Source: an uncultured Spirochaetales bacterium (GTDB lineage Bacteria > Myxococcota_A > UBA9160 > UBA6930). From it: a stretch of DNA of 64,000 nt. Below the pieces are notes generated by a model. That model searched no databases, was not told the DNA's origin, and saw nothing but the letters and a program-made list of their open reading frames with translations. The position numbers were made by a program, and so were the translations under genes. The stretch lies in the NCBI GenBank assembly GCA_964501435.1, contig CAZCTH010000001.1, positions 2,656 through 66,655 of the forward strand, read 5' to 3'. The stretch's first letter is position 1; each line of letters begins with the position of its first letter. This document shows, piece by piece, positions 12,645 to 30,996 of this stretch.

Positions 12645-12649
12645 GTCGA

Positions 12650-15852: not shown

Positions 15853-15866
15853 TCCGAGCGATCGCG

Positions 15867-17024
15867 ATGACCACGATCCTCACCGACCTCGTGACGCAGT
15901 TCCAAGCCGCCACCTCCGGTTGGTTCCAGGCGTTGTTCCCGATCGCGCGGAACCTGTTCTTCACCCTGGCCGCGATCGAGCTCGTCTGGGCGGCGTCGTG
16001 GTGGGTCGTTGAGCGCGACGATCCAGCACAGATCCTGGTGCAGCTCCTCAAGCGAGTGATGGCGATCGGGTTCTTCCTCGCGGTGCTGACGTTTGCCGAC
16101 ACGTGGATCCCGGCTGTGATCGATGGTTTCTCGACCGCCGGCCAACAGGCATCCGGACTGCCCGAACTGAACCCGAGCACGGTGATCGATCAGGGAATCG
16201 CGATCGCGACGAGCCTTATCTCGAGCATCTCCGTTGCCGGATGGTTCACGTCGCCGATGGGCGGCCTGGTCGCCGCGTTCAGCGCGCTCGCCAGCTTCCT
16301 CGCATTCGTCGTGATCGCCGCGCAGCTCGCACTCGCGCTGATCGAGATGTACGTCGTCATCGGCGGTGGCGTGCTGCTGCTCGGCTTCGCGGGCTCACGC
16401 TGGACGATGCCGTTTGCCGAGCGGTACCTGAGCTACGCGGTCGCGGTCGGGATCAAGCTCTTCGTGCTCTACCTAATCGTGGGTGTCGGCACTGCGCTCG
16501 CGGCGTCCTGGAGCACGCTGATCGCCAACGCGGGCGCATCGTTCGCGGATCTCTTCGCGGTCGTCGGCGCCTCGCTCGTCTACATGATCGTGGCCTGGCA
16601 GATCCCCAGCTTCGCCTCGGCGCTGATCGCCGGCTCGGTGAACCTCACGCTCGGCACCGCCGCGTACACCGCGGCGTCGATGGGTGCGATCGCGCTCGGC
16701 GCGAAGGGGCTCGCCGTGCGCGCTGCCGCGGCCACCGCGGGCGCCACGACTGCGATGCTGGAAGCAGGCCGCTATGCGCGGGACGCGCGCGCTGTCGGCG
16801 CCGGGGGCGGGACGGGAGGCGCGATCGCCGGCGCGGGCGCACTCGCTCGAGAAACGCTTGCAACGCATGCGCGCCGCGCGATCGGCATGCGCGCGTCATC
16901 CACGGCGACCGCGATCGAAGAGGCTCGCGTGGCGCGCTTCGGCCCCGCGCTCATTGCGCAGCGCGCGGCGCGGCAAGAGAAGGGCGCACCGCGGCCGGCT
17001 GGCAATGAGGAGAATCGCTCGTGA
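15867..17024 (+). CDS. trbL: TrbL/VirB6 inner-membrane channel protein
   Basis: Start moved to the ATG at 15867 (MTTILTDLVTQFQAA...). Polytopic with an Ala/Gly-rich tail. The upstream 342 codons of the track ORF overlap trbE/trbJ in another frame and are Arg-rich noise. Confidence 0.85.
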   Translation: MTTILTDLVTQFQAATSGWFQALFPIARNLFFTLAAIELVWAASWWVVERDDPAQILVQLLKRVMAIGFFLAVLTFADTWIPAVIDGFSTAGQQASGLPELNPSTVIDQGIAIATSLISSISVAGWFTSPMGGLVAAFSALASFLAFVVIAAQLALALIEMYVVIGGGVLLLGFAGSRWTMPFAERYLSYAVAVGIKLFVLYLIVGVGTALAASWSTLIANAGASFADLFAVVGASLVYMIVAWQIPSFASALIAGSVNLTLGTAAYTAASMGAIALGAKGLAVRAAAATAGATTAMLEAGRYARDARAVGAGGGTGGAIAGAGALARETLATHARRAIGMRASSTATAIEEARVARFGPALIAQRAARQEKGAPRPAGNEENRS

Positions 17025-17677
17025 CAGCGCGCGCCCCGGAGAACCCGTACCTCGCCGCGCGGCTCGAGTGGAACGAGCGCTACCACGGCTTCCTGCGAGC
17101 GAAGCGCAACTGGCAGATCGTTGCGCTTTCGCTCGTCGCCGTGAACGCAGGGCTCGTCGGCGCGATGACGTGGCTCGCGACGCAGAGCCGCGTCGTACCC
17201 TACGTGGTCGAGGTCGATCGCCTCGGGCAGACGCTCGCCATCGGTCCCGCTGAACGCTCGCGTGCGGCCGATGCGGCGCTCATTCGATACCAGCTCATCG
17301 AGTTCATTCGGCGCTCGCGCTCCGTGATCTCGGACGGCGCCGCTGAGAAGCAGCTTCTCGAGTCGGCGTACACGCAGGCCGGCGGTGCGGCCGTGCGCTT
17401 CCTGAACGAGCACTTCCAGGAGCAAAGCCCGTTCGTCGTGATGCGCGAGCGAACGGTTGCCGTGCAGGTGACCAGCGTGCTGAGGCTTCCGGCGAGCGAC
17501 TCGTGGCAGATCCAGTGGATCGAGACGCATCGCGGGCTCGATGGCGCCGTGCTTGCGGCGGAGCGCTGGCAGGCGCTTCTGCGCGCCGAGGTGCGCGCGC
17601 CGGAGTCGCCCGACGAGCTGCTTCGTAATCCGCTCGGCCTCTACGTCACAGACATCCAGTGGACCCAACAGTTGTGA
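17021..17677 (+). CDS. trbF: TrbF/VirB8-family protein
   Basis: 218 aa with a single N-terminal TM helix and an NTF2-like periplasmic domain. GTGA overlap with trbL. Confidence 0.85.
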   Translation: MTARAPENPYLAARLEWNERYHGFLRAKRNWQIVALSLVAVNAGLVGAMTWLATQSRVVPYVVEVDRLGQTLAIGPAERSRAADAALIRYQLIEFIRRSRSVISDGAAEKQLLESAYTQAGGAAVRFLNEHFQEQSPFVVMRERTVAVQVTSVLRLPASDSWQIQWIETHRGLDGAVLAAERWQALLRAEVRAPESPDELLRNPLGLYVTDIQWTQQL

Positions 17678-17685
17678 GGAGACCC

Positions 17686-18630
17686 ATGCACCGACCGAAC
17701 GGCCTCGCGGCCGCCCTAGTCATAGAGGTGACAACCGCGCTTGCGGGATGCGTCGCGGCGCCGCCACGGGGGCCCGAAACACTGTCGCCAGCGACTCTCG
17801 CGGCCGCAGATGAACTCGCGCCGGCGGCGGACGCCTCTCCACCAGCAAGCACATCTGCATTCCTCGATCCGGCCGACCCGGAGCTCACCGAGGCCGTTCG
17901 CCGGTTCCAAGAGACCGGCAAGGCGCCCGTCATCCGAAGCCCCGGCTTCGTGCGGTTCCCATTCGGGGAGACGCAGCCAGTCCTCTACTGCAAGCCGCTT
18001 CGCGTGTGCGACGTGCAGCTCGAGCTGGGCGAGATCGTGATCGACGTGGCGCTCGGAGACTCGGATCGCTGGATGGCCTCGAAGCTCGAAAGCGGTCCCC
18101 CGGGCGCGCGCGTCGCGCACGTCCTCTTGAAGCCGACCGAGTTCGATGCCGCGACAAATCTCGTGATCACTACGGATCGCCGCGTGTACCACCTCGGCCT
18201 CGTCAGCACAGCGGGTGCGCAATCCGGCTACTTCCGCAGCGTCCGCTTCTACTACCCCAGCGAGACCATCCAGCGTTGGGCGTCATCGACTGGCGCCGCC
18301 ACGCGCGAGCGCGAACTCGCCGTGGCGTCGCTTCCGTCCGTGAGCCCCGAGGCGCTCCACTTCGGCTACCGCATCGCGGGCGAGCGCGTGCCCTGGCGTC
18401 CGATACAAGCCTTCGACGACGGCACGCGCGTTTTTCTCTTGATGCCTGACGCGATGCGGGCGAACGAGGCGCCCGCGCTCTTCGTGCAGTCCGAGGAAGA
18501 GGAGAATGCGCTCGTGAACTACCGCGTGCGCGGTCGCTACTACGTCGTGGATCGCCTGTTCGCGAAGGCGGTGCTCGCGCTCGGCGTCGGCCGCAATCAG
18601 CAGCGCGTGACGATCACGCGGATTCCGTAA
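17686..18630 (+). CDS. trbG: TrbG/VirB9-family protein
   Basis: ATG at 17686 is preceded by GAGGAG. Lipobox-like LAGC. The C-terminal beta-rich VirB9-like region includes NYRVRGRYYVVDRLF. Confidence 0.85.
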   Translation: MHRPNGLAAALVIEVTTALAGCVAAPPRGPETLSPATLAAADELAPAADASPPASTSAFLDPADPELTEAVRRFQETGKAPVIRSPGFVRFPFGETQPVLYCKPLRVCDVQLELGEIVIDVALGDSDRWMASKLESGPPGARVAHVLLKPTEFDAATNLVITTDRRVYHLGLVSTAGAQSGYFRSVRFYYPSETIQRWASSTGAATRERELAVASLPSVSPEALHFGYRIAGERVPWRPIQAFDDGTRVFLLMPDAMRANEAPALFVQSEEEENALVNYRVRGRYYVVDRLFAKAVLALGVGRNQQRVTITRIP

Positions 18631-18644
18631 CAAGCGAGGCCATC

Positions 18645-19916
18645 GTGTCTGATCCCAACGACGATGTTCGAAGACCGCCAGCCGATCCGATCGACCTCAA
18701 TTCCGAGCCGCGCGTGACGCGCCTGAATCGCAGAGCAATCGGCGTACTTGCCGCGGCGCTCTGCGCGGCCCTCCTCGCCGCAGTATTCACGCTGTCGCAG
18801 CGAAGCCAGCAAGCGGAGCAACGCACGAAGGAGAGCAGCCGCCCGAGCGCGACGCCGGATCGATTCTGGGAGGATGCACCCGACGGCACACCGGGGCTGC
18901 TCGCGCCGCCCGAACCGGTGCCGGAGCTCGTCGAGCGCGAGACGCCTTTCTTCGAGGCCGGCGATTCAGGGTTCCAGAACGCCAGCGAGGCGATGAGTCC
19001 GGAGGAGCAGATCCTCGAGCGCGCGCGTCGCTCGCCGATCGTCGTGTACGAAGGGAAGGAAGCAGAGGCGACAGTCGCCGGGGGATGGGCCGCGTCACGG
19101 CTGGCGGGCGAGCCGGGCTCGCCGCCGAGAGACGGGATCGCCGAGACGTCGTTGGGCGCGATCGCCAACCTCGGCGCCCCCGAAGATCCTGTCGTCGCCC
19201 AGAACCTTCAGCACGAGAAGCGCGACTTTCTCGACGACGCTGGCCAATCGCAAGAAGAGACGATCGCTCATCGAGTCCGCACCCCGTCGTCGCCCTACGC
19301 CGTGCTCGCGGGAGCAGTCATCCCCGCGGTCCTCGTAACCGAAGCGCGCTCCGATCTGCCGGGGCAGGTGATCGCTCAGGTGCGCGAGTCCGTCTTCGAC
19401 ACGCCGACCGGCGCGCACCTCCTGATTCCACAGGGCACGCGGGCAATCGGAGAGTACGACAGCGTCGTTGCGTTCGGGCAGGAGCGCGTACTCGTCGCGT
19501 GGCAGCGCTTGCTCTTCCCCGACGGATCGAGCCTCACCTTGGGAGCGATGCCAGGCACCGACGCTGCTGGCGCCGCGGGGCTACACGATCGCGTCGACCG
19601 ACATTTGCTTCGGACGTTCGGCAGCGCGGCGCTCCTCAGTGCGATCAGCGCCGGCGCGCAGCTCTCTCAAGGAACGTTCGGTAGTGGCGCGGGCAGTAAT
19701 GCGCCGACCGACGCGCGCGAGATCCTGGCCGCCGCGCTCGGCCAGAACCTCGCCGAGCTCGGCACCGAGATGACGCGACGCAACCTAAGCGTTCAGCCTG
19801 CCCTCGAGATCCGAGCCGGGTACCGCTTCAACATTGCGGTTGTGAAGGACCTCGTGTTGCCTGGGCCGTACGCGGACGATCTCGCGCTCACCGCGCCATC
19901 AGGAGGACCACGATGA
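18645..19916 (+). CDS. trbI: TrbI/VirB10-family protein
   Basis: 423 aa with an N-terminal TM helix, a Pro-rich linker and the conserved C-terminal VirB10 domain (ATLVTEARSDLPGQVIAQV...LEIRAGYRFNIAV). Confidence 0.9.
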   Translation: MSDPNDDVRRPPADPIDLNSEPRVTRLNRRAIGVLAAALCAALLAAVFTLSQRSQQAEQRTKESSRPSATPDRFWEDAPDGTPGLLAPPEPVPELVERETPFFEAGDSGFQNASEAMSPEEQILERARRSPIVVYEGKEAEATVAGGWAASRLAGEPGSPPRDGIAETSLGAIANLGAPEDPVVAQNLQHEKRDFLDDAGQSQEETIAHRVRTPSSPYAVLAGAVIPAVLVTEARSDLPGQVIAQVRESVFDTPTGAHLLIPQGTRAIGEYDSVVAFGQERVLVAWQRLLFPDGSSLTLGAMPGTDAAGAAGLHDRVDRHLLRTFGSAALLSAISAGAQLSQGTFGSGAGSNAPTDAREILAAALGQNLAELGTEMTRRNLSVQPALEIRAGYRFNIAVVKDLVLPGPYADDLALTAPSGGPR

Positions 19917-20146
19917 AGCTCCACCGCCGCAAACCCGAGGAGCCGCCTGTCGAGATTCGCATCACCGTTCCTGCTGAGACGGTCGCCGAGTTGAAGGCGT
20001 ACGGGCAGTACTACGAAGCGACCTACTCGGACGCGATTGCGCTTCCGGTGCTGATCGTCGAGATCGTCCAGCAATACCTAACCCGCGAGCGGGGCTTTCG
20101 CAGCTGGGTCCGCACGGTCGGGGCAAGCCAGCGCGCGGTCGAGTGA
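19913..20146 (+). CDS. DUF2274-family small protein (typical last gene of Trb-type ICE transfer operons)
   Basis: 77 aa with an ATGA overlap with trbI. The sequence KLHRRKPEEPPVEIRITVPAETVAELKAYGQYY fits my recollection of DUF2274. Confidence 0.65.
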   Translation: MKLHRRKPEEPPVEIRITVPAETVAELKAYGQYYEATYSDAIALPVLIVEIVQQYLTRERGFRSWVRTVGASQRAVE

Positions 20147-20148
20147 GA

Positions 20149-20174: not shown

Positions 20175-20202
20175 CGCACGGTTCCTAAACCGCGTGTCGT
20201 CA

Positions 20203-20226: not shown

Positions 20227-20237
20227 ATAATCAACGC

Positions 20238-20280
20238 GACCCCGGGGACTTACGGTCCTCGGGGTCGTCGTGTGTTTGGG
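20238..20280 (+). terminator. strong hairpin followed by a T-containing tail (terminator-like)
   Basis: GACCCCG (20238-20244) pairs with CGGGGTC (20260-20266), with an inner GGAC/GTCC helix, followed by GTCGTGTGTTTGGG. It lies 11 nt after the tRNA-like CCA. Confidence 0.4.
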
Positions 20281-20601
20281 GCAGCTGGGAAAAGGAAGGG
20301 GCTAGGAAGGTTCTGCGTTGGCGACCCCGCCCGGCAGAGGGCCCAGTTGACGCTCCGCGTTCGCGACGATACGCTGGCCGCGGCGAGGCCGAGCGGAGCG
20401 AAGGCCGAAGCCAAGGCTCTTGACAGCCACGCGGCCTTTGCCAGCTTCCGCGACTTGGTCGACCGGACCCCTCGCCGGGCGAGCCAGAGAACGGCCGGCG
20501 CCCCCAGCGCCACCCGGCGGCGAGAACACCGACGAGTTCGAACTGGGACCTCCGGCACTTTGCGTGCTTCGGCGATGCCGAGCCGCGCTGGAAACCCCCT
20601 A

Positions 20602-21735
20602 ATGACCTACGAACCGTCGCTCGACCTCCGCCACCCAGGCGCCGAGCTCGACTGGTTGCTTCTGCTCATCACGCAGAAGCTCCAGCTCTCGCCCACGCAG
20701 CAGCAAACCGCGGCCGATCGGTATCAGGCTGTCGGGCGCTACCTGCAGTCGAGGGCACCGATCCTTCGGATGGACCTATACGCGCAGGGATCGATGGCGC
20801 TCGGCACCACGGTCAAGCCGAAGGGCGGCGGCGAGTACGACCTCGACATCGTGCTCGAGATCCAGCGATTTCCCTCCGAGAGCCCGTTGGACTTGCACCA
20901 GTGGCTGGTCGACGCGCTGCGCGCGAGCGGGACGTACCGCGACCTCGTCGAGCCCAAGAAGCGCTGCGTGCGGTTGAACTACGCCGGCGACTTCTACATG
21001 GACGTGCTGCCGGCTCGTCCCGACCCGAATCCTGCGAAGTCCCGGCTCTACCGCGAGACCTGCATCCTCGTGCCGGACACAAAGTTGGAGGCCTGGACCG
21101 GAAGCAACCCGCGCGGCTTCGTGCGCTGGTTCGAGGGTCAATGCAGCGAGGACGCGCTCCGCTTGCGCGCTGCGCAGCAGCCACTGCCTGAAGCCGAGCC
21201 CGCGCACAGGAAGGCGGTCCTGCAGCAGCTCGTGCAGCTGGTGAAGCGCCATCGGGTGATGTGGTTCGGGGACGACAACGACGACGCGCCGCGCTCGATC
21301 GTGCTCACCACTCTCGCCGCGCACTTCTACCACGGCGAGCCCGTCCTGTTCGAAGCGCTCCGCGGCGTCGCCGCACGGATTCTCGCCGCGCTCCCGCCGG
21401 AGCCTCCGCAGGTGCGGAACCCGACCAACTTCGACGAGATTTTCTCGGAGCAGTGGATCGCAAAGCCCGCGACCTACGACGCATTCGTCCGCTGGATGCG
21501 GCAGTTCCATGCGCGCATCGCGAATCTTCCGCGCCTGCTCGGGCCCGCGCTCGACGACGAGATGCGAAGCCTGTTCGGCGAGGTCGCACGCGACGCGCGC
21601 GCTGCGCTGACCGAGCGGGTGGCACAAGCGCGGGCGGCGCAGCAGCTGCGGGCCACGCGGAGCGGACTCACGACGGCCGCGGGCGCTGGCGCGCTGGTCC
21701 GACCCAACACCTTTTTCGGGGGCGACCACGAGTAG
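20602..21735 (+). CDS. CD-NTase / SMODS-family cyclic-oligonucleotide synthase (CBASS cyclase)
   Basis: Pol-beta NTase triad QGS(63-64)MALGTTVKPKGGGEYD(80)LD(82)IVLEI plus third acid FYMD(134)VLPA. Also the N-terminal helix LSPTQQQTAADRYQAVGRYL, SNPRGFVRWF and PRSIVLTTLAAHFY. Start could be ATG 20602 or ATG 20575. The 153 in-frame codons upstream are Arg-rich non-coding sequence. Confidence 0.8.
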   Translation: MTYEPSLDLRHPGAELDWLLLLITQKLQLSPTQQQTAADRYQAVGRYLQSRAPILRMDLYAQGSMALGTTVKPKGGGEYDLDIVLEIQRFPSESPLDLHQWLVDALRASGTYRDLVEPKKRCVRLNYAGDFYMDVLPARPDPNPAKSRLYRETCILVPDTKLEAWTGSNPRGFVRWFEGQCSEDALRLRAAQQPLPEAEPAHRKAVLQQLVQLVKRHRVMWFGDDNDDAPRSIVLTTLAAHFYHGEPVLFEALRGVAARILAALPPEPPQVRNPTNFDEIFSEQWIAKPATYDAFVRWMRQFHARIANLPRLLGPALDDEMRSLFGEVARDARAALTERVAQARAAQQLRATRSGLTTAAGAGALVRPNTFFGGDHE

Positions 21736-21796
21736 GCGACCTCTAACGGCTGCGGTCCAGTACGCGGGCCTCGAAGCCATCGGCTTCAAGGGCTCG

Positions 21797-22150
21797 GTGC
21801 GGCGCAACAGGCTCGTGGTGCGCGGGCCGGTGCAGCCGAAGGCGCTCAGCGAGACATACGGAGTCCGCATCGAGTACACGGAAGGGGATTCGCCCGACGT
21901 CTGGGTGGAGGACCCGCCGCTGCGGCCTCGCGAACCTGGCGGCGCGATCCCACACGTCTACCCCGGCCTACGCCTCTGCCTGCATCTGCCCGGCGCGGGC
22001 GAGTGGACGCCGGCCGATGCCATCTCGAAGACGACGGTCCCGTGGGCGGCGATTTGGCTGCTGTTCTATGAGGACTGGCTCACAACAGGCGAGTGGCGTG
22101 GCGGTGGAGTCCATCCGGACCCTGGCGACACGAAGCTGGAGGGCAAATAG
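21797..22150 (+). CDS. stand-alone E2 (UBC)-like protein, CBASS ancillary
   Basis: 117 aa with a beta-rich N-half followed by IPH(53)VYPGLRLC(61)LH and EWTPADAISKTTVPWAAIWLLFYEDW. This resembles the E2 HPN..C flap and W-x-P helix. GTG is the only available start. Confidence 0.55.
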   Translation: MRRNRLVVRGPVQPKALSETYGVRIEYTEGDSPDVWVEDPPLRPREPGGAIPHVYPGLRLCLHLPGAGEWTPADAISKTTVPWAAIWLLFYEDWLTTGEWRGGGVHPDPGDTKLEGK

Positions 22151-23151
22151 TGCGCCGCGTCCTCGCGATCGACGGCGGCGGCATCAAGGGCGTATTCGCG
22201 GCGGCCTTCCTCGCTCGGATCGAGGACCACATCGAGGGCAGCGTCGGCGACTACTTCGACTTGATCTGCGGCACCTCGACCGGCGGAATCCTCGCCCTCG
22301 GCCTGGCGTCGGGACTCTCGGCGCAAGACATCCTCGGCTTTTACCAGAAGCACGCCCAGGACATCTTCGGCCCCGCGCCATCGCATTGGCGTGCGATCCG
22401 GCGGCTGTGGCGACCCAAGTTTGACTCGGCGCCGCTCCATCGAGCGCTGCGCGAGCACTTCGGCGATCGCCGACTACGCGACTGCAACCGCCGCCTCGTC
22501 GTCCCAAGCCAGGTGTTGGAAACCGGCGACGTCCACATCTACAAGACTCCTCATCATCCGCGCCTCGTCGACGATGTCGACAGGACGTTGGTCGACGTCG
22601 CCATGGCTACGGCGGCAGCGCCGACCTACTTCGCCGCGCATCGTCCCGCCGGCTGTGCACTCCTGGTCGACGGCGGAACATGGTCAAACAACCCGGCAGG
22701 TGTCGCGGCGACAGAGGCCGTCGGGGTGCTTGGATGGGATCGGAAAGAGACGCGGCTCTTGAGCGTCGGGTGCACCGAAGAACCGTGGGACCCGACGCGA
22801 GTCCGGAACACGACGTTTGAAGGTGCTGCTTGGCTCCAGCACGCCCACACGCTGATGATGAAGGGACAGTCGTTCGGGGCGTTGGGTACGGCCAAGAGTT
22901 TGTTGGGCGCCGAGAACGTGCACAGAATCTCTGCTGTCGTTGCGCCCAATCGGTTCACGCTCGACGACGCGAGCACGGTGGACGATCTCGTCGACCTCGG
23001 CCGGGTTGAAGCCCGCACTGCGATTTCACAGGTGCGCGAGAGGTTCTTCGACACGCCGGCCGAACCCTTGCTATCTCTGCCTTCCCCACCCCGATCAACT
23101 CCGCCGGGCGCAACCGAGATGGAAGGCGCCAGGTGGTCGGGGACGTCATGA
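22150..23151 (+). CDS. capV: patatin-like phospholipase effector (CapV-like)
   Basis: RVLAIDGGGIKG oxyanion motif, GTSTG nucleophile elbow and LLVDGGTWSNNP catalytic Asp. GTG at 22150 overlaps the E2 stop (TAGTG). The alternative ATG at 22093 would add 19 atypical residues. Confidence 0.88.
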   Translation: MRRVLAIDGGGIKGVFAAAFLARIEDHIEGSVGDYFDLICGTSTGGILALGLASGLSAQDILGFYQKHAQDIFGPAPSHWRAIRRLWRPKFDSAPLHRALREHFGDRRLRDCNRRLVVPSQVLETGDVHIYKTPHHPRLVDDVDRTLVDVAMATAAAPTYFAAHRPAGCALLVDGGTWSNNPAGVAATEAVGVLGWDRKETRLLSVGCTEEPWDPTRVRNTTFEGAAWLQHAHTLMMKGQSFGALGTAKSLLGAENVHRISAVVAPNRFTLDDASTVDDLVDLGRVEARTAISQVRERFFDTPAEPLLSLPSPPRSTPPGATEMEGARWSGTS

Positions 23152-25640
23152 CGCACTCGCTCGTAGAGCCGGTTGATTTCTTTCGCATTGACGCCAGCAG
23201 CAAGCTCGTACCTGTCCGGCGCGCCGAACTCGGCCAATTCCTGACGACCGCACCCGTCGCGCGCCTCATGGCCGGGATGTTCGAGCGTCGCCCGCGCGAG
23301 GTCAGGTTGCTCGATGCTGGGGCCGGCGTGGGCAGCCTCACAGCCGCCTTCGTGGAAGCCGCGATCAGTTGGGACCCGAAGCCCGAGCGAATCGTCGCAA
23401 CCGCCTACGAGGTTGATCCGGCCCTCGTGCCCTACCTCAAGGACTCCCTGCGACTCTGCGGGGACGCCTGTGCGGCTTCGGGCATCGCCTTCGAGAGCAC
23501 CGTCGAGGGCGAGGACTTCGTGGAGGCGGCCGTCGCGATGCTGGACGGCGGGCTCTTCGCGCGCCCAACAACTCGCTTTAACGCCGCGATCCTGAACCCG
23601 CCGTACCGAAAGATTCACTCCGCATCCGAGGCGCGCAGGCTGGTTCGCGCCGTCGGGGTCGAGACCTCGAACCTCTATACGGCGTTTCTCTCGCTCGTCG
23701 TCAAGCTGCTGGAACCGGGCGGCGAGCTCGTCGCGATCACGCCGCGCAGCTTCTGCAACGGGCCGTACTTCAGGCCCTTCCGTGAACTCTTCCTCGCGAA
23801 CATGGCGATCCACCGCGTGCACGTCTTCGACGCGCGGGACCGAGCCTTCGCGGACGACGCGGTCCTGCAGGAGAATGTCATCCTGCAAGCCCTACGGGGT
23901 GAACCGTCGCCTAGCCGAGTGGTCATCACGGCGAGCTCCGCGCCCGACGAGGACATGACCATCCGGCGCGTGTTGCCGGGCGAGTTAGTGCGCCCGGGCG
24001 ATCCCGAGCAGTTCATCCGAGTTGTTACTGACGACCTCGGTGCGCGGATCGCCGAACGAATGGAGAGCCTGCCGGCGACCCTCTCCGACTTGGACGTCGA
24101 GGTCTCGACCGGCCGCGTCGTCGACTTCCGCGCGAGCGAGCATCTGCGGGCGGAGCCGAGCCGCGACACCGCGCCGCTTATCTATCCCGGCCACTTTTCG
24201 AGTGGCTTCGTCGAGTGGCCGAAGCTCGGCGGTAAGAAGCCGAACGCCCTCGCGGCCGTTCCCGAGACGCTCTCGCTCCTGATGCCGCCGGGCGTCTACG
24301 TCCTGGCGAAGCGCTTCTCGTCCAAGGAGGAGCGCCGACGCGTGGTCGCCGCGGTCTACGACTCGGCGCGGATCGACGCGGGGGACGTCGGGTTCGAGAA
24401 TCACCTGAACGTCTACCACCGACGAGGAGCGGGCCTTCCGGAGGCGCTCGCCAAGGGGCTCGCGCTCTTCCTGAACTCGTCGCTCGTCGATCTCTACTTC
24501 CGCCAGTTCAGCGGGCACACACAGGTGAACGCGACCGACCTAAGAAGTTTGCGCTACCCGAGCAGCGAGGCGCTTGAACTTCTGGGCGCTTCGGTCGGCG
24601 AGGCCATGCCGGGGCAGGACGAGGTCGACCGGCGATTGCGAGAGGGGGTGTTCGGAGTGGCGACTGATCCGGTGAGCGCGAAACGGAAGCAGGACGAGGC
24701 GCTCTCGATCTTGAAGGCGTTGGGGTTTCCAAAGGCTCAGCTGAACGAGCGCTCGGCGCTCACCCTCCTCGCGCTGCTTGACCTGAAGCCCGAGTCGGAG
24801 TGGCTCGCTGCACGCGATCCGCTGATGGGTATCCGCCCGCTCATGGACTACTTCAAAGAGCACTACGGCAAGGTGTACGCGGAGAATTCCCGCGAGAGCG
24901 TCAGGCGCTTCACGATTCACCAGTTCCTCGAAGCCGGCTTGATCGTGCGGAACCCGGACGACCCAGAGCGCCCGACCAACAGCGGGCTCTACGTTTATCA
25001 AGTCACGCAGCCGGCGCTGGACCTCGTGCGCACGTTTGGACTGCCTGCCTGGGGCGCGAACCTCGCCACCTACCTTGCTAAGCGCCCCGGGCTCGCGAAG
25101 AAGTACGCGAGCGAGCGCGAGCAGCGGCGGATTCCGGTGACGCTGCCGACGGGCCAGACACTCTCGCTCTCGCCCGGCGGGCAGAACGAGCTCGTCAAGA
25201 AGATCCTCGAGGAATTCTGCCCGCACTTCACGCCGGGCGGTCACGTGCTCTACGTCGGCGACACGGGCGACAAGTGGGCGATCTCGGATGCCGCGGGCCT
25301 CGCGGCGCTCGGGGTAGAGGTAGACCTGCACGGGAAGATGCCGGACGTTGTCGTCCGCCACGTCGAGAAGAACTGGCTTGTGCTCATCGAGGCGGTCACC
25401 AGCCATGGGCCCGTGGACGGCAAGCGCCACGGCGAGCTCCGGACGGTCTTCTCGGGCGCGAAGGTGGGGATCGTCTACGTCACGGCGTTCCTCGACCGAA
25501 AGGCGCTCGCCAAGTACGTCGCGCAAATCTCCTGGGAGACCGAGGTGTGGGCCGCCGACTCGCCGACCCATCTCATCCACTTCGATGGCGAGCGGTTCCT
25601 CGGTCCGTACCCACCGGACGGAGGCTCGCACGCCGGCTGA
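23148..25640 (+). CDS. single-chain restriction-modification enzyme: N6-adenine methyltransferase fused to a BsuBI/PstI-family endonuclease
   Basis: N-half: FLTTAPVARLM, LLDAGAGVGSL (SAM motif I) and ILNPPYRKI (motif IV). C-half: ALSILKALGFPKAQLNERSALTLLALLDL (the BsuBI/PstI N-domain) and GKMPDVVV..LVLIEAVTSHGP (PD..ExK-like core). ATG at 23148 overlaps the capV stop (ATGA). Confidence 0.75.
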   Translation: MTHSLVEPVDFFRIDASSKLVPVRRAELGQFLTTAPVARLMAGMFERRPREVRLLDAGAGVGSLTAAFVEAAISWDPKPERIVATAYEVDPALVPYLKDSLRLCGDACAASGIAFESTVEGEDFVEAAVAMLDGGLFARPTTRFNAAILNPPYRKIHSASEARRLVRAVGVETSNLYTAFLSLVVKLLEPGGELVAITPRSFCNGPYFRPFRELFLANMAIHRVHVFDARDRAFADDAVLQENVILQALRGEPSPSRVVITASSAPDEDMTIRRVLPGELVRPGDPEQFIRVVTDDLGARIAERMESLPATLSDLDVEVSTGRVVDFRASEHLRAEPSRDTAPLIYPGHFSSGFVEWPKLGGKKPNALAAVPETLSLLMPPGVYVLAKRFSSKEERRRVVAAVYDSARIDAGDVGFENHLNVYHRRGAGLPEALAKGLALFLNSSLVDLYFRQFSGHTQVNATDLRSLRYPSSEALELLGASVGEAMPGQDEVDRRLREGVFGVATDPVSAKRKQDEALSILKALGFPKAQLNERSALTLLALLDLKPESEWLAARDPLMGIRPLMDYFKEHYGKVYAENSRESVRRFTIHQFLEAGLIVRNPDDPERPTNSGLYVYQVTQPALDLVRTFGLPAWGANLATYLAKRPGLAKKYASEREQRRIPVTLPTGQTLSLSPGGQNELVKKILEEFCPHFTPGGHVLYVGDTGDKWAISDAAGLAALGVEVDLHGKMPDVVVRHVEKNWLVLIEAVTSHGPVDGKRHGELRTVFSGAKVGIVYVTAFLDRKALAKYVAQISWETEVWAADSPTHLIHFDGERFLGPYPPDGGSHAG

Positions 25641-25879
25641 TCGCCGTGCTCCCCGTGCTGGCCTACGCGCGCGATCGGCCGCCCAAGGCGACGCACGGGT
25701 CCGCTGTCCGCGGGTTCGGCGCCGATTCCGCTGGCGAGTCGCCGGGCTCGCAGTTGCGGGGCCGGGTTGGGAAGGGCCCGGGGGAGGGGTCAGGCGCTCG
25801 CGATCGGGGCTGAACCTGTCCCGATTCCGCGGGCACATTCTTTAGGCGGCTTTCTCAGGACTGACTCGACTACGTCTGC

Positions 25880-26303: not shown

Positions 26304-26324
26304 CAGAACAACACGGAGGGTTCA

Positions 26325-26804
26325 ATGGCAACAACAACTCGCGACGGCATCCACTTCATCCGCGTGGTCGCAGTCCGCTACACCGGGCCGCGGCGGCGAT
26401 CGCCCGAGACGGTCCGCGCTCCGCGCGAGGCGACGGCGGTCATGCGCCGCATCATCCTCGACGACGCGCGCGAGCACTTCATCGCGCTCTACCTCGACGG
26501 CCGGCACCACGCGATCGCGCTCCAGGTCGTCTCGATCGGCACCGCGACTGCGTCGCTCGTCCACCCGCGCGAGGTCTTCCAGTCCGCAATCCTAATCGGC
26601 GCGTGCGGCGTGATCGTCGGCCACAATCACCCGTCGGGCGATCCGAGCCCGAGCCCCGAGGATCGCCAGATCACGCGTCGAATCGCCGACGCGGGCAAGC
26701 TCCTCGGCATCCCGCTGCTCGACAGCGTCGTGTGGGGCCACGGCGTTTCGTACGTCTCGCTGCGAGAGATCGCGCCGGACCTCTTCGGCTCGAGCGCAGA
26801 CTGA
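26325..26804 (+). CDS. radC: RadC-like JAB/MPN-domain protein
   Basis: JAMM motif GHNHPSGDPSPSPED, a RadC-type C-terminal half, and SD-like GGAGGG 7 nt upstream of the ATG. Confidence 0.88.
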   Translation: MATTTRDGIHFIRVVAVRYTGPRRRSPETVRAPREATAVMRRIILDDAREHFIALYLDGRHHAIALQVVSIGTATASLVHPREVFQSAILIGACGVIVGHNHPSGDPSPSPEDRQITRRIADAGKLLGIPLLDSVVWGHGVSYVSLREIAPDLFGSSAD

Positions 26805-27116
26805 CGGTGCGCGGCACTCGCGTCGCGCACGTCGGACGCGAGCGGTCGCTGAGCCAGCCCCCCATCTCACCCCCTCGTCGACTCCTCGCTGACCGCCAAG
26901 TCGACGCACACGCAGCGCGTCCCGCCAGAGCCGCGATCGCGTGTTTCGCCATCCGTGTTCGTCCGGTTTTCCCCCTCTGGTGCTGCACCTCTTAGGGCCT
27001 GGCCCAGCCGTCGCCTATGCGCGCAAGGCACCGCTGCGCTCGCCTGCGGCGGCCTTGCGCGCGGCTCCGGCTGGTCCGCATCGGCCCGAGGTGCAACGCA
27101 CCAAGGAGGAAACCCG

Positions 27117-27527
27117 ATGATGACTCTCACTTACTTCAACGAAACACTCGACCGCCTGCTGGGCGGGGCGCGCTGCGTGCGCATTACCGTCGACGGCTAC
27201 ATGACGCTCGTCGTCGAGGAGGTCGGGCCGTCGGCGGATGGCCGCCGACTCATCGCGCTCGCGCACACGGCCGTGCAGAACGGCGACGTAATGCACGACC
27301 CCGAGATCGTGTTCGAGCTCCATGCGCTCGGCGCAGAGCCGATCTCCTTCCGCAACGACTACGTCGGCGCGTACAACGAGGTGTACGCATACGATCACGC
27401 CGGTCGCCGCACCGGCGTGTATCCGAAGCGACGCGCCGAGCTTCAGTCCTTCGCGCGCATGTGGTTTCGCAACCTCCGCGCGCAGGGCTTCCTGGGAGAC
27501 GCCGCGCGACGCGAGGTTCTCGCATAG
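27117..27527 (+). CDS. hypothetical protein (conserved-looking, soluble, 136 aa)
   Basis: Strong SD AAGGAGGA at 27104-27111 followed by tandem ATGs at 27117 and 27120. Composition is coding-like. I cannot name a family with confidence. Confidence 0.6.
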   Translation: MMTLTYFNETLDRLLGGARCVRITVDGYMTLVVEEVGPSADGRRLIALAHTAVQNGDVMHDPEIVFELHALGAEPISFRNDYVGAYNEVYAYDHAGRRTGVYPKRRAELQSFARMWFRNLRAQGFLGDAARREVLA

Positions 27528-27705
27528 CCCGCGCGGACCTCGGGCCCGTCGCGCCTCGCGCGCGGCGGGCTCGCGGCTCGGTCGCCTACGTCCCGCGCTC
27601 AGCAGATGTCGTCGCAGAGCGGTCTCCTCGGAGGAGCGTTCGGCGAGCGCCTCGACCGACCGTCAAGTGCGCGGCTATTCTGACTTCGCGCGTGAGGGGC
27701 ATCGC

Positions 27706-28098
27706 ATGATCGTCGCGGAATTCATCCTTGTCGCGTTCGTCGCGGGCATCCTCGCGAAGAGCGGCTGGATCGCGATCGCGACGTTCGCTCTGCTCTACAG
27801 CGTCTACCGCTACAGCCGACTCTCTGTCCTGCTCGCCGCGTTGCTGATCGCTTATTGGGCGGCAGTCGGCTTTCAGGTTGGCCGCGGCGTGAGCGGCCCG
27901 GTCGGCGCCTTGGCTGGCGCGGTAGTGGCGGGTCTGGTGTCCGCGCGCGTGCACCGCGATGCCTTCACTCGTCTACGTGGGCGGGGAGAGATCAGGCAGA
28001 CTCCTGCGCCGCAACCGGTAGCGTTCAGTGCATCGCCGGTGCCGAAGACTCACCGCGAAGGCGACGTGATCGACGTGGAGTACCGCGTCGTTTCGTAA
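27706..28098 (+). CDS. small membrane protein (3 predicted TM helices), unknown function
   Basis: ATG at 27706. MIVAEFILVAFVAGILAKSGWIAIATFALLY.. followed by two more hydrophobic helices and a charged tail. The upstream part of the track ORF is Arg-rich noise. Confidence 0.55.
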   Translation: MIVAEFILVAFVAGILAKSGWIAIATFALLYSVYRYSRLSVLLAALLIAYWAAVGFQVGRGVSGPVGALAGAVVAGLVSARVHRDAFTRLRGRGEIRQTPAPQPVAFSASPVPKTHREGDVIDVEYRVVS

Positions 28099-28170
28099 CG
28101 CGAGCGCGCCATTGTCTCGCTCAGCCCGTTGTCGATTCGATGCATGATCGGGCTCCGCTTGGGAGTCGGA

Positions 28171-28345
28171 TGGCAGCGCGAGTGGACTTGGCTTTGGCAG
28201 CGCGTATGCGTGATGAGCTGCGCGGGAGAGGGAGCGGGTCGGGGAGAGATCGGAGGAGAGAGGAGTTGTTATAGAATCTTGTGCAAGATAAAGAGTGCTG
28301 GACGGAATCTCGCAACCGCTCGATTCTCAAAGGAAATCTGTTGGA
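28171..28345. promoter_or_regulatory. repeat-rich, locally AT-rich intergenic block
   Basis: The role could be an oriT, a promoter remnant or a rearrangement junction. TGGCAGCGCG occurs at 28171-28180 and again at 28195-28204. A purine-rich tract runs 28224-28265 (37 of 42 nt). An AT-rich stretch follows with GAATCT at 28274 and 28305, GATTCT at 28322 and GAAATCT at 28333. Confidence 0.35.
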
Positions 28346-28406
28346 CGACGCGCGAAGAGCGCACATCCGGCACAGGTTCAGCCTCGAGGGCTACTAGAGG
28401 CCTTGG

Positions 28407-28925
28407 CTACTTACGCGGCTGGCGTTCGCCTGAGCCACCATTCACGGCCGGAGCTGCTGCCGGAGCGAAGGCGTCCGAAGTGCGTGCGGCGTGCTCATCC
28501 ACCGCCGTCAGCCACGCGCGATGCCGCGCCGAAGCACTCTGTGAACGCGTTGCTCGCAGCTCGGGCGGAACCTCTGGCATGTGCAGCATCAGCCCGAAGT
28601 AGAGCCGATCGAGCATCGCCTCGGCTCGCGCAATCCGTAGGTCGATCGAAGCAAGAGTGTCCGTGTGGTCGTCGATCCGGGCGGCGATCCGCGCCTCGAG
28701 TTCGAGCAATGGCAGGGGCACGCGCCGCGGCGCATCGGTGTCGGCCGGGAGGAACCGCACCGCCTCCGCGGTCACGTCTCGCGCGGCGAAGGCCTCCGCG
28801 AGAGCAGTGCGAACGATTTCCGAGAGCCGCTCCCCGGTCGCAGCCGCCTCGCGCAGCATCCGCTGGTAGAGCGCCTCGGCGATGTGCGTGCGCACTTCGT
28901 ACTGCTTCCGTCGTTCATTGCTCAT
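28407..28925 (-). CDS. ribbon-helix-helix (CopG-like) protein following traG
   Basis: Start moved to the ATG at 28925 (MSNERRKQYEVRTHIAEALYQRMLREAAATGERLSEIVRTAL is an RHH-type N-terminus). It overlaps the traG stop by 11 nt. Confidence 0.6.
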   Translation of the reverse strand: MSNERRKQYEVRTHIAEALYQRMLREAAATGERLSEIVRTALAEAFAARDVTAEAVRFLPADTDAPRRVPLPLLELEARIAARIDDHTDTLASIDLRIARAEAMLDRLYFGLMLHMPEVPPELRATRSQSASARHRAWLTAVDEHAARTSDAFAPAAAPAVNGGSGERQPRK

Positions 28926-30996
28926 GCTGCGCTCCCGAGCGCGCGCTCTCACCGAACATCTTCTCTTGCGCGAGGAGTTGCTCCGGCGCAACTACCGTCG
29001 AGGCGGCGCCCGCTGTCCAAGGGCACGCGCGGGAACGCAGCCGATCCGACTCCCGCGGCGCAGCGATCGCCGCTCGTCGCGCGAACTCTGCGTTCTCGAA
29101 GTACCGCAGCTTGCTTGCGAGAATCGGCCGAGCGCCGGCGACGAAGACCAGTGCAGCGTCGGCCGGCAGGCGCATGGCTTCGTCAGGCGTCAGCAGAGCC
29201 CGGTGCGACTCCTGCTCGGATGCGAGCACGTGCATGAGCACTGGGTTGAGGCGATTTCCCGTGTACGTGCGGCTCTCCTTGTGCACGGTCATCGCACCCG
29301 CCATGTCTGACAAGAGTCGCGCTGTCTCGACGCGATTCGGAGCGAAAGCGACGCGGACATGGCAGTTCGACACGATGCTCTCGTCGCGGCCGTACGCGGC
29401 GTAGAGCTGCGAAAGGTCCTGCACGATGAGGAACGCCTGAATCCCGTAGCCGGACAGGTACGAGAGCTGACTCTGGAAGAAATCGAGCCGCCCGAGCGTC
29501 GGGAACTCATCCATCAGCAGAAGAAGCTGGCGGCGGTCCCGCCGACCGTTGCTGTCCGGCGCGTGCAGTTCTTCCGTCAAACGCCGCCCGACCTGCTGGA
29601 TCAGAAGCCGGGTCAGCGACCGTGTGCGCGCTAGATCTGACGGCGGAACGGTCAGGTAGAGGCTCACGGTGCGATCGGGGCGAACCAGGTCGGCGATGCG
29701 AAAATCGCAGGCGGATGTGTTCGCGGCCACGATGTCGTCGTGGTAGAGGCTAAGGAACTTCGTGGCCGAGGAGAGCACGCTCGACCGCTCGTTCTCGGAC
29801 TTGTTCTTCAGCGATCGCGCAGCACGCGCGACCGCGGGGTGCGTCGGCGTGGCTTCCCCGGTTGTTGGGTCGTGCCATCCGCGCGTCAGGCCAGGATCGT
29901 GCGGCGCATTGAGCATCTCATCGAGCACGGTGCCGATCGTGCGGCTCGGGTCCGTGAGGAAGTCGAGGCAGCCGCGCAAGCTCTTGTCGGGTCGCACGTA
30001 GAGCACGTGCAGAATCGTGCCCGCGAGAACTTCCTGCGCAGTGAGATCCCAGTGGTCCTTCGTGCCCGCGCCATCCGGATCGACGAGCATGTCGGCGATC
30101 GTCTGAACGTCGCGCACTTCGAACGGCCCGCGCCGCACCTCGAGCAACGGGTTGTATCGCGCGGCGCTTCCGTCGGCGCAGGTGGGGTCGAAGCGCAGGC
30201 AAGTGCTGCCGAGCTCGCGCTGGCGAAACCCCGCGGTGAGCGACCAGTTCTCGCCCTTCACGTCGTTCACGAGCACGGAGTGCGGCCAGGTAAGAAGCGT
30301 CGGGATCACCCAGCCGACGCCTTTGCCCGAGCGCGAAGGCGCGAAGCCGAGGACGTGTTGAGGCCCGGCGTGGCGAAGTGGGAGCTCGCGCCGGCCGCGC
30401 TGCCAGACGCCGACGTAAATGCCTTGCCGACCCAACAGCCCCGCAGCTTCGACATCGAGATCGGACGCCCATCGTGCAGAGCCGTGCAGGTCGCTCTTGC
30501 CGCCGACCCGCCGCGCTCGCCGCACGGCGATCGCGATTCCAACGATGAAGACGAAGTGCGCCGGTACTCCAATCAGCCAGTGGCCGGTGCGAAAGATCGC
30601 GTCGGTAGCGGGTGTGCTCGCGAAGCGGAGCTCCCAGATGAAGAAGTCCCAGGGTGCGTAGATCGGGCCGAGCCACGCCGCTGCCGCGGCGATCGCCGCA
30701 ACCGTCGAGGGAGCGGCGAACCGACGTGCGGGCACATGAAACGTGGACAGGAATGCAACCGCTGCGAGTAGAACAGCGAAGGCAGCGAGCGCGACACGCG
30801 CATCGGGCGACGCCGTGAGCAGTGGCGCGCCGAGCGCGCGTTGGAAGCCGAATCGCCACGCGGTCCATTGCGTCGTCGCCCACAGAACGAGAACGATGGT
30901 TGCGGCTACCGAAATCAGCGAGGCGAAGAGAACGCCGGCCGCACTGTTGCCGTCGGTGCCGCCGGGCAGGCGATAGAGAGCGAGTCTTTTCTGCAC
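28915..30996 (-). CDS. traG: TraG/VirD4 type IV coupling protein
   Basis: 693 aa with N-terminal TM helices, a P-loop-like FAPSRSGKGVGWVIP and the conserved LLLLMDEFPTLG (Walker B region) typical of T4CPs. Confidence 0.9.
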   Translation of the reverse strand: MQKRLALYRLPGGTDGNSAAGVLFASLISVAATIVLVLWATTQWTAWRFGFQRALGAPLLTASPDARVALAAFAVLLAAVAFLSTFHVPARRFAAPSTVAAIAAAAAWLGPIYAPWDFFIWELRFASTPATDAIFRTGHWLIGVPAHFVFIVGIAIAVRRARRVGGKSDLHGSARWASDLDVEAAGLLGRQGIYVGVWQRGRRELPLRHAGPQHVLGFAPSRSGKGVGWVIPTLLTWPHSVLVNDVKGENWSLTAGFRQRELGSTCLRFDPTCADGSAARYNPLLEVRRGPFEVRDVQTIADMLVDPDGAGTKDHWDLTAQEVLAGTILHVLYVRPDKSLRGCLDFLTDPSRTIGTVLDEMLNAPHDPGLTRGWHDPTTGEATPTHPAVARAARSLKNKSENERSSVLSSATKFLSLYHDDIVAANTSACDFRIADLVRPDRTVSLYLTVPPSDLARTRSLTRLLIQQVGRRLTEELHAPDSNGRRDRRQLLLLMDEFPTLGRLDFFQSQLSYLSGYGIQAFLIVQDLSQLYAAYGRDESIVSNCHVRVAFAPNRVETARLLSDMAGAMTVHKESRTYTGNRLNPVLMHVLASEQESHRALLTPDEAMRLPADAALVFVAGARPILASKLRYFENAEFARRAAIAAPRESDRLRSRACPWTAGAASTVVAPEQLLAQEKMFGESARSGAQHEQ

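What the first reader, a model, noticed from the sequence alone, without database searches (positions are those of the whole stretch)
20575..25640. E2-only CBASS translationally coupled to a single-chain methylase/PstI-type nuclease: a four-gene composite defence operon
Seen in the sequence: four same-strand genes encode a CD-NTase, a 117-aa E2-like protein, a patatin effector and an MTase-REase fusion. The E2 stop overlaps the capV GTG (TAGTG at 22148-22152). The capV stop overlaps the RM ATG (ATGA at 23148-23151). An abortive-infection signalling system and an innate restriction system are therefore apparently transcribed, and probably translated, as one unit. Established knowledge: CBASS and RM genes cluster in defence islands, and E2-only ('type II short') CBASS has been catalogued but, as far as I recall, not mechanistically resolved. 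Inference: start-stop coupling of a CBASS effector to an RM enzyme suggests stoichiometric or regulatory linkage. I am not aware of this having been described. The locus sits inside a conjugative element, so it would also be mobile.
Basis: partly seen in the sequence, partly recalled or inferred. Interest (0 to 1): 0.82.

Follow-up and report, generated by a model that had tools for sequence, protein, structure and literature searches.

The report
E2-CBASS operon abutting a restriction gene
Two well-known bacterial anti-virus systems, a CBASS suicide-signalling operon and a one-protein restriction-modification enzyme, sit back to back as cargo on a conjugative element. Their touching genes look like a one-off recent join, not a conserved new combined system.

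Summary
Four same-strand genes encode a CdnG-like CD-NTase (20602-21735), an E2 (21797-22150), a CapV patatin phospholipase (22150-23151) and an 830-aa methylase/BsuBI-PstI nuclease fusion (23148-25640). The TAGTG and ATGA overlaps are at the stated coordinates. HMMs and PDB matches support all four assignments.

The idea of an evolved, coupled composite system is not supported.
- None of 80 CapV loci from diverse genomes has this RM gene within 8 kb.
- None of about 40 loci with RM relatives has a CBASS gene nearby. This includes the four nearest lineages (78-63% identity), which are all solitary genes.
- The last ~64 nt of capV are homologous to the non-coding leader, Shine-Dalgarno included, of solitary RM homologues.
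- Those homologues also start ATGAC, so the ATGA overlap comes from Met-Thr plus capV reading through a captured leader.

Related trb elements carry different defence cargo at the same site, which marks a hotspot. E2-CBASS is already mechanistically characterised.

One extra finding: the ancestral E2 start codon is ACG here, so the 117-aa ORF lacks the conserved N-terminal helix.

Co-transcription remains likely. The locus is ordinary defence-island stacking.

The parts
20236..20268 (+). Strong hairpin followed by a T-rich run (terminator-like). It lies at the left edge of the cargo, just after the trb/DUF2274 backbone.
   Evidence: 15-bp stem with 10 GC pairs. MFE about -32 kcal/mol. Backbone DNA homology with the related element L121 ends at about window 20225.
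20602..21735 (+). CD-NTase (CdnG-like cyclase), 377 aa. It has a QGSM...DLD active site and ends in FFGGDHE.
   Evidence: Pfam SMODS and DncV-like_NTFase. PADLOC cyclase 5.6e-86. PDB SmCdnG 8hsb_A 6.3e-30, aligned up to the C-terminal Gly. The gene call of 377 aa is.
21728..21796 (+). Conserved E2 N-terminal coding region (TSRRPLTAAVQYAGLEAIGFKGS) that has no canonical start codon. ACG at 21728 sits where homologue L016 has ATG.
   Evidence: profile match extends to positions 5-7 and the score rises from 134 to 139.5 bits; L016 'gacgATGAGTAGg' against window 'gaccACGAGTAGg'.
21797..22150 (+). E2 ORF as callable from GTG (117 aa). It carries the equivalents of SmE2 H87, C101, H152 and K159.
   Evidence: PADLOC E2 9.5e-40. 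PDB 8hsb_B 5.2e-24 with residue-level alignment. Precomputed Pfam PF26395 E2-CBASS.
22150..23151 (+). CapV patatin-like phospholipase effector, 333 aa. GGGIKG, GTSTG and DGG motifs are present. The GTG start overlaps the E2 stop by 1 nt.
   Evidence: Pfam Patatin 6.6e-31. PADLOC phospholipase effector 2.5e-95. NCBIfam CBASS_lipase 245.6 bits, above the cut-off of 200. Alignment A1 invariant columns.
23084..23147 (+). Segment homologous to the non-coding 5' leader (with Shine-Dalgarno GGGGAC) of solitary RM homologues. Here it is read as the C-terminal tail of CapV.
   Evidence: Alignment. Local alignment score 18 against shuffles of 9.4 +/- 1.4, with 0 of 1000 shuffles reaching it. The equivalent frame is closed by stops in L003 and L004. 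Tail GC3 is 0.62 against 0.80 for the capV body. Leader comparison.
23148..25640 (+). Single-chain (type IIC-like) restriction-modification enzyme, 830 aa: an N-terminal N6-adenine methylase (DAGAGVG, NPPY), then a BsuBI/PstI HTH domain and nuclease domain.
   Evidence: Pfam Eco57I, BsuBI_PstI_RE_N and BsuBI_PstI_RE. PADLOC PDLC03359 2.3e-262, full length. More than 8000 homologues with the same architecture.
10943..20146 (+). Upstream conjugation backbone: TrbB, TrbE/VirB4, TrbL, VirB8, CagX/TrbG, TrbI and DUF2274.
26325..30996 (.). Downstream element genes: RadC-like JAB (26325-26804, +), DUF6908 (26955-27527, +) and the TraG/VirD4 coupling protein (28915-30996, -).
   Evidence: PADLOC gave no hits for RadC or DUF6908.

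Best explanation
The locus holds two independent, already known defence systems stacked as cargo in the variable slot after trbI-DUF2274 of a conjugative element that is probably from Myxococcota.

System 1 is an E2-CBASS (type II short).
- By homology, a CdnG-like cyclase is held and regulated by covalent linkage of its C-terminal glycine to the E2 cysteine or lysine.
- On infection it makes a cyclic nucleotide that activates the CapV phospholipase and kills the cell.

System 2 is a single-polypeptide methylase plus BsuBI/PstI-type nuclease (type IIC-like RM). It methylates host sites and cuts unmodified incoming DNA.

The RM cassette, with at least 64 nt of its native leader and its own ribosome-binding site, became joined to the 3' end of capV.
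- capV lost its original stop and now reads through the leader.
- It terminates at the TGA that any ATG-ACN start contains.
- As a result the RM gene probably lost its own promoter and is transcribed by read-through from the CBASS operon. It can still initiate translation on its own Shine-Dalgarno.

Basis of each step:
- Shown: gene identities, the overlaps, leader homology, absence of the junction elsewhere, and the hotspot.
- Inferred: co-transcription, loss of the RM promoter, and functional independence of the two systems.
For: - Family assignments.
- Overlaps.
- No internal terminator-like site.
- 0 of 80 CapV loci have the RM gene within 8 kb.
- 0 of 34 metagenomic RM relatives, and none of the four closest lineages (78, 72, 66 and 63% identity, all solitary with their own upstream intergenic regions), have CD-NTase, E2 or CapV nearby.
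- Leader homology is significant and collinear (0 of 1000 shuffles reach the score). It includes the conserved GGGGGAC-N3-ATGAC.
- The equivalent frame carries stop codons in L003 and L004.
- The capV tail has non-coding-like GC3 (0.62, lower than 99.7% of the 26-codon windows in the four genes).
- CapV is about 10-20 aa longer at the C-terminus than most homologues.
- Related elements (TrbI 85, 67 and 58% identical) carry different defence cargo directly after DUF2274.
- The E2-CBASS mechanism comes from bioRxiv 10.1101/2022.05.25.493364 and PMC12948482.
Against: - No expression data exist. An internal promoter within capV, or read-through from the trb operon, cannot be excluded.
- The databases sample the source lineage poorly. 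The nearest CapV is only 52% identical, so closer relatives that share the junction could exist unsampled.
- The leader homology rests mainly on one comparison (window against L003). Window against L004 alone is not significant beyond the Shine-Dalgarno region.
- The exact locus recurs in three assemblies, which appear to be the same organism or study. It is therefore at least stably maintained.
- Tight packing could still give a selective benefit, such as co-regulation or co-transfer, even if it arose by accident.
Confidence: 0.8

Rival explanations
1. A truly integrated composite system. Translation of the RM enzyme is coupled to CapV to fix their stoichiometry. Alternatively, the RM enzyme takes part in CBASS sensing or execution, for example by producing DNA fragments that trigger the cyclase, or by acting as a second effector.
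For: There is a 4-nt ATGA overlap, no terminator-like site between the genes, and all four genes share a strand with no gaps from E2 onward. Precedent for an abortive-infection nuclease embedded in an RM cassette is PrrC in EcoprrI (own knowledge).
Against: - The junction was not found in any of 80 CapV loci or about 40 RM-relative loci.
- The RM protein is a full-length ordinary member of a family of more than 8000, with no SAVED, STING or other nucleotide-sensing domain.
- The Shine-Dalgarno and the ATGAC start are inherited from solitary homologues.
- The overlap is explained by capV reading through a captured leader.
Confidence: 0.07
2. The CBASS half is decaying. E2 has lost its start codon, so the operon may mainly serve as a promoter and leader for the RM gene, and the functional defence here is the RM enzyme alone.
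For: - ACG at 21728 sits where L016 has ATG, in the same 8-nt overlap with the cyclase stop.
- No ATG, GTG or TTG occurs in frame between 21611 and 21797.
- The missing segment corresponds to the N-terminal helix of SmE2, residues ~11-31.
- E2 deletion abolished immunity in the Serratia system.
Against: - The cyclase, the E2 core and CapV are intact ORFs with all catalytic motifs and coding-like GC3.
- GTG 21797 has an AAGGG 4 nt upstream.
- PADLOC holds short E2 models of 110 and 82 positions that match the 117-aa ORF well, at 7.8e-33. Short E2 forms may therefore be real.
- The upstream 23 codons are still conserved in sequence.
Confidence: 0.13

Closest known systems
E2-CBASS (type II short CBASS), e.g. 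the Serratia marcescens SmCdnG-SmE2 system (PDB 8hsb; Yan et al., bioRxiv 10.1101/2022.05.25.493364; Xiao et al. 2026, PMC12948482)
   Same: - The cyclase is closest to CdnG structures (6.3e-30) and has a glycine near its C-terminus.
- The E2 aligns to SmE2 (5.2e-24) with H87, C101, H152 and K159 conserved.
- There is no E1 or JAB gene in the operon.
- Gene order cyclase-E2-effector with tight spacing is seen in many homologous loci.
   Different: - The effector is a CapV patatin phospholipase, not 2TM-SAVED.
- The E2 lacks a canonical start for its N-terminal helix (ACG in place of ATG).
- The cyclase has three residues (DHE) after the GG, against one in SmCdnG.
- An RM gene is appended to the operon.
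CapV/DncV-type CBASS phospholipase effectors (NCBIfam NF041079, CBASS cGAMP-activated phospholipase)
   Same: It scores above the curated equivalog cut-off (245.6 against 200 bits). All invariant patatin motifs are present.
   Different: The best homologue is only 52% identical. The C-terminal tail of about 20 aa is encoded by the neighbouring gene's leader.
BsuBI/PstI-family type II RM systems and their single-chain (type IIC-like) M-R fusions
   Same: It has the full methylase domain (Eco57I-type, NPPY), the BsuBI_PstI HTH domain and the nuclease domain. The architecture matches more than 8000 database proteins of ~830 aa. Plasmid-borne relatives at ~50% identity are the classical two-gene M then R form. 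Head-to-tail M-R systems such as BsuBI were predicted to give rise to IIC fusions (PMC3039593).
   Different: Here the gene has no upstream intergenic region of its own and overlaps a CBASS effector gene. Recognition sequence and activity are unknown. CTGCAG is not avoided in the window: 23 observed against 26 expected.
PrrC-EcoprrI and similar abortive-infection genes embedded in RM cassettes (own knowledge)
   Same: An abortive-infection function and a restriction function are encoded in one transcription unit.
   Different: In PrrC-EcoprrI the linkage is conserved and the proteins interact physically. Here the linkage is a singleton and there is no evidence of interaction.

Membership tests
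E2-CBASS (type II short) | CD-NTase with the nucleotidyltransferase active site (GS motif, DxD plus a third Asp) | tested here: met
   SMODS 1.1e-11, PADLOC cyclase 5.6e-86. QGSM...DLD...D read in the translation. SmCdnG 6.3e-30.
E2-CBASS (type II short) | Conserved glycine at or near the cyclase C-terminus for linkage to E2 | tested here: met
   The protein ends ...NTFFGGDHE. The alignment to 8hsb_A runs to query residue 373 (Gly), matching chain residue 406 (Gly). The role of G406 is described.
E2-CBASS (type II short) | E2 with the catalytic Cys and the E2-CBASS-specific His residues (SmE2 H87, C101, H152) and K159 | tested here: met
   Residue-level alignment to 8hsb_B: PHVY, RLCLH, GGGVHP and DTK align with H87, C101, H152 and K159.
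E2-CBASS (type II short) | Complete E2 fold including the N-terminal alpha-helix, translated from a normal start codon | tested here: not met
   The helix-coding codons 21728-21796 are conserved, but the homologous start is ACG and no ATG, GTG or TTG lies in frame upstream of 21797. Whether a truncated or non-AUG-initiated E2 works is unknown.
E2-CBASS (type II short) | No E1 domain and no Cap3-type JAB peptidase in the operon | tested here: met
   Only four genes lie between 20602 and 25640. The RadC-like JAB gene 685 nt downstream has no PADLOC hit and is a common element backbone gene.
E2-CBASS (type II short) | Nucleotide-activated effector | tested here: met
   CapV scores above the NCBIfam equivalog cut-off. 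Activation by the cyclase product is not testable here.
E2-CBASS (type II short) | Protects against phage by abortive infection | not testable with these tools
   Needs plaque assays.
Single-chain BsuBI/PstI-family RM (type IIC-like) | Methylase and nuclease domains in one polypeptide, both full length | tested here: met
   Pfam Eco57I 142-229, BsuBI_PstI_RE_N 514-650 (positions 3-139 of 140) and BsuBI_PstI_RE 662-815 (1-154 of 154). PADLOC PDLC03359 positions 10-839 of 840.
Single-chain BsuBI/PstI-family RM (type IIC-like) | SAM-binding motif I and catalytic motif IV (NPPY) of N6-adenine methylases | tested here: met
   LLDAGAGVGSL and ILNPPYRK read in the translation.
Single-chain BsuBI/PstI-family RM (type IIC-like) | Sequence-specific cleavage blocked by its own methylation | not testable with these tools
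   Needs biochemistry or methylome data.
Integrated abortive-infection/RM composite (PrrC-EcoprrI-like) | Linkage of the two modules conserved across independent lineages | tested here: not met
   0 of 80 CapV loci. 0 of 34 metagenomic RM loci. 0 of 4 nearest RM lineages.
Integrated abortive-infection/RM composite (PrrC-EcoprrI-like) | Physical or regulatory interaction between the modules | not testable with these tools
   Needs pull-downs and genetics.

The most novel reading that the evidence does not exclude
The accidental join has produced a working dependency. The RM enzyme has lost its own promoter and is now expressed only with the CBASS operon. The element therefore delivers a first-line (restriction) and a last-line (suicide) defence as one co-regulated, co-transferred transcription unit. 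This would capture a composite defence operon at the moment of its origin. The RM gene might also act as an addiction module that stabilises the CBASS genes and the element.
Probability: 0.12. Interest if true: 0.45.

Novelty: new member of a known kind. Interest (0 to 1): 0.22.

Why it matters
As it stands, the locus is an ordinary example of defence genes stacked in the cargo slot of a conjugative element.

Its modest value is as a clear worked case of how two defence cassettes become one operon. The captured leader, the lost stop codon and the 'free' ATGA overlap are all visible in the sequence. It also warns that start/stop overlaps alone do not show evolved coupling.

It further identifies a defence-cargo hotspot after trbI-DUF2274 in a family of Myxococcota-like conjugative elements.

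Tried and rejected
- The first genome scan, using the cyclase as a single query, found no relatives. It was replaced by a CapV alignment query.
- A megablast of the 6-kb region against plasmids gave no match.
- I looked for direct repeats flanking the cargo (20147-20601 against 25641-26324). Only chance-level matches of 12 nt or less turned up.
- I tested whether PstI-type sites (CTGCAG) are avoided in the window. They are not: 23 observed against 26 expected. This gives no information on specificity.
- I considered a programmed +1 frameshift on the T5G5 tract (21712-21722) that would make a cyclase-E2 fusion. Natural fusions exist (PADLOC PDLC00816; PMC12948482). I rejected this as the main reading because L016 has separate genes with an ATG exactly where the window has ACG.
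- I considered RadC (a JAB domain protein) as a cryptic Cap3. It has no PADLOC hit, lies 685 nt away and is typical backbone.
- I checked ORFs downstream of capV in 17 loci with the same gene order. Most were spurious high-GC ORFs and none was RM-like.
- The consensus promoter scan found nothing on the + strand. A weak TTGACG-17-TACGCT at 20347-20375, seen by eye, is below the tool's threshold and is not evidence.


Full report
**1. Observation**

The window has four consecutive + strand ORFs:
- a cyclase, 20602-21735 (an alternative ATG lies at 20575);
- an E2-like ORF, 21797-22150;
- a patatin gene, 22150-23151;
- an 830-aa gene, 23148-25640.

The sequence shows TAG 22148-22150 sharing its G with GTG 22150-22152.

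The capV start is backed by an alignment of 29 homologues that begin M-[RK]-R-[IV]-L-A-I-D-G-G-G and by a GGAGG 8 nt upstream. The RM start coincides with that of homologue L004.

The consensus scan found no terminator-like site inside the cluster. The only one, 20236-20268, lies upstream of the cyclase.

**2. Identities**

- Pfam gives SMODS and DncV-like NTase for gene 1. It gives Patatin for gene 3. For gene 4 it gives Eco57I methylase, BsuBI_PstI_RE_N and BsuBI_PstI_RE.
- PADLOC gives cyclase 5.6e-86, E2 9.5e-40, phospholipase effector 2.5e-95, and a full-length match (positions 10-839 of 840, 2.3e-262) to a type II RM model.
- NCBIfam places CapV above the curated cut-off of 'CBASS cGAMP-activated phospholipase' (245.6 against 200 bits).
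- The cyclase is closest to solved CdnG structures (8hsb_A, 6.3e-30) and ends ...FFGGDHE. Its alignment stops on a Gly opposite SmCdnG G406.
- The E2 aligns to SmE2 (8hsb_B, 5.2e-24) with the equivalents of H87, C101, H152 and K159 conserved. Those residues form the thioester and isopeptide links and the protease-like site in the published mechanism.

So this is an E2-CBASS with a CapV effector, next to a single-chain methylase/PstI-type nuclease.

**3. What is already known**

E2-only CBASS is no longer unresolved.
- Yan et al. (bioRxiv 10.1101/2022.05.25.493364) showed that the E2 processes the cyclase C-terminus. It links it to Cys101 and Lys159 and drives poly-cGASylation. E2 deletion abolishes defence.
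- Xiao et al. 2026 (PMC12948482) give the SmCdnG-SmE2-GTP structure.

The RM fusion is a very large family.
- More than 8000 database proteins reach E<=1e-20. The best 120 are all ~820-920 aa with the same three domains.
- Plasmid relatives at ~50% identity are the classical two-gene M then R form.
- Head-to-tail systems such as BsuBI were predicted to yield type IIC fusions (PMC3039593).

**4. Is the CBASS-RM junction conserved?**

It is not.
- A genome scan with a CapV alignment returned 80 loci from many phyla, with up to 8 kb of flank on each side where the contig allows. tblastn found cyclase and E2 next to CapV in many of them, but no hit to either half of the RM protein in any.
- The reverse check gave the same answer. 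The four nearest RM lineages are all solitary genes with their own upstream intergenic regions and no CBASS genes. Their identities are 78% (L003), 72% (L004-6), 66% (L126/7) and 63% (L128/9, Myxococcota).
- 34 further relatives from metagenomes also lack cyclase, E2 and CapV.
- The four-gene arrangement was found only in contigs 100% identical to the window (L001, L002).

**5. How the junction arose**

- The 64 nt before the RM ATG align collinearly with the non-coding leader of L003. The local score is 18, against 9.4 +/- 1.4 for 1000 dinucleotide shuffles, none of which reached it.
- L003 and L004 are homologous over the full 150 nt upstream (score 36 against 10.3 +/- 1.7).
- The window, L003 and L004 share a G-rich Shine-Dalgarno (CGGGGAC in the window, GGGGGAC in L003/L004), a 3-nt spacer and ATGAC. 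All three proteins start Met-Thr.
- In L003 and L004 the frame that corresponds to capV is closed by stop codons within this leader.
- The last 26 codons of the window's capV have GC3 of 0.62, against 0.80 for the body. That is lower than 99.7% of the 26-codon windows in the four genes.
- CapV runs about 10-20 residues past the usual C-terminus.

The simplest reading is that an RM cassette with its leader was joined to the end of capV. capV then reads through the leader and stops at the TGA inside ATG-ACN. The 'ATGA coupling signal' therefore predates the junction, and the RM gene keeps its own ribosome-binding site. Sequence upstream of about -64, conserved between L003 and L004, is replaced in the window by capV coding sequence. 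The RM gene has therefore probably lost its native promoter and depends on read-through. This last step is inference.

**6. Context**

- Upstream are TrbB, TrbE/VirB4, TrbL, VirB8, CagX, TrbI and DUF2274.
- Downstream are RadC, DUF6908 and a TraG/VirD4 coupling protein on the minus strand.
- TrbI relatives are annotated Myxococcota or Deltaproteobacteria.
- Related elements carry other cargo immediately after DUF2274.
  - L121 (TrbI 85%) has an unrelated gene. Its DNA homology with the window ends at about 20225, just before the hairpin.
  - L122 (67%) has kinases, a NERD-kinase and an MmeI/Eco57I-type methylase.
  - L123-125 (58%) have a helicase, a Gp49/HTH pair and KAP-NTPase/QatB genes.

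This site is a variable defence-cargo slot.

**7. The E2 start**

- Homology to E2 profiles and to SmE2 continues 23 codons upstream of GTG 21797. The PADLOC match extends to profile positions 5-7 and rises from 134 to 139.5 bits. SmE2 residues 11-33 align to this stretch.
- The frame is open back to 21611 but has no ATG, GTG or TTG.
- In L016 the E2 starts at an ATG that overlaps the cyclase stop as ATGAGTAG. The window has ACGAGTAG at the same place.
- The ancestral start is therefore ACG here, and the callable 117-aa ORF lacks the N-terminal helix described for SmE2.
- This may impair E2, or a short or non-AUG-initiated form may still work. PADLOC includes short E2 models that fit the ORF well.

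**8. Verdict**

The gene identities, probable co-transcription and mobility are supported. The idea of an evolved stoichiometric or regulatory linkage between CBASS and RM is not.

The locus is a new member of two known kinds, joined by what looks like a recent, singular rearrangement in a cargo hotspot. Interest is low to modest.

The residual novel reading is that the join has created a real expression dependency, a composite operon 'caught at birth'. It cannot be excluded without transcript and genetic data.

Noticed in passing
window 21728-21799: The ancestral E2 start codon is ACG here, while L016 has ATG in the same ATGAGTAG overlap with the cyclase stop. The only canonical start, GTG 21797, removes about 23 conserved residues (the N-terminal helix).
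   Followed up: yes
window 21712-21722: A T5-C-G5 homopolymer tract (TTTTTCGGGGG) lies at the cyclase C-terminus, where the E2 frame (+1) is already open. Slippage or an indel here would make a cyclase-E2 fusion, as exists naturally in other CBASS operons.
   Followed up: partly
L121:11503-12078; L122:3462-12978; L123-L125:11868-21236: Related trb elements carry quite different defence-type cargo directly after DUF2274. One has an unrelated N-terminal gene fragment. One has kinases, a NERD-kinase and an MmeI-type methylase. One has a helicase, Gp49/HTH and KAP-NTPase/QatB. This marks a cargo hotspot.
   Followed up: partly
protein P0165: A 465-aa protein carries both PF26395 (E2-CBASS) and Patatin domains. 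It is a natural E2-CapV fusion, 47% identical to this CapV.
   Followed up: no
L099:1297-3683; L106:6001-8426; plasmid hits H13-H37: The same RM family occurs as two separate, sometimes overlapping, M and R genes in some metagenomic loci and in many plasmids, among them Pseudomonas, Aeromonas and Enterobacteriaceae. It is fused in most environmental relatives.
   Followed up: partly
window 26258-26290: A very stable GC-rich hairpin (about -34 kcal/mol in a 50-nt window) lies just upstream of radC. The 685-nt stretch between the RM stop and radC has no called gene.
   Followed up: no
window 26325-27527: A RadC-like JAB domain gene and a DUF6908 gene follow the defence cluster. Neither has a PADLOC hit. 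They are probably element backbone genes, not a Cap3-like CBASS accessory.
   Followed up: partly
window 23062-23071 vs L003/L004 leaders: GAACCCTTGC, which encodes the conserved CapV 'AEPL', resembles the CGAACCCTCGC found in the RM leaders of L003 and L004 about 17 nt out of register. This could be microhomology at the recombination junction or chance.
   Followed up: no
window 33000-64000: Beyond about 33 kb the genes look metabolic (nitronate monooxygenase, zinc alcohol dehydrogenase, amidohydrolases) and GC rises to about 0.70-0.75. This may be other cargo or the host chromosome. No integrase or relaxase was looked for.
   Followed up: no
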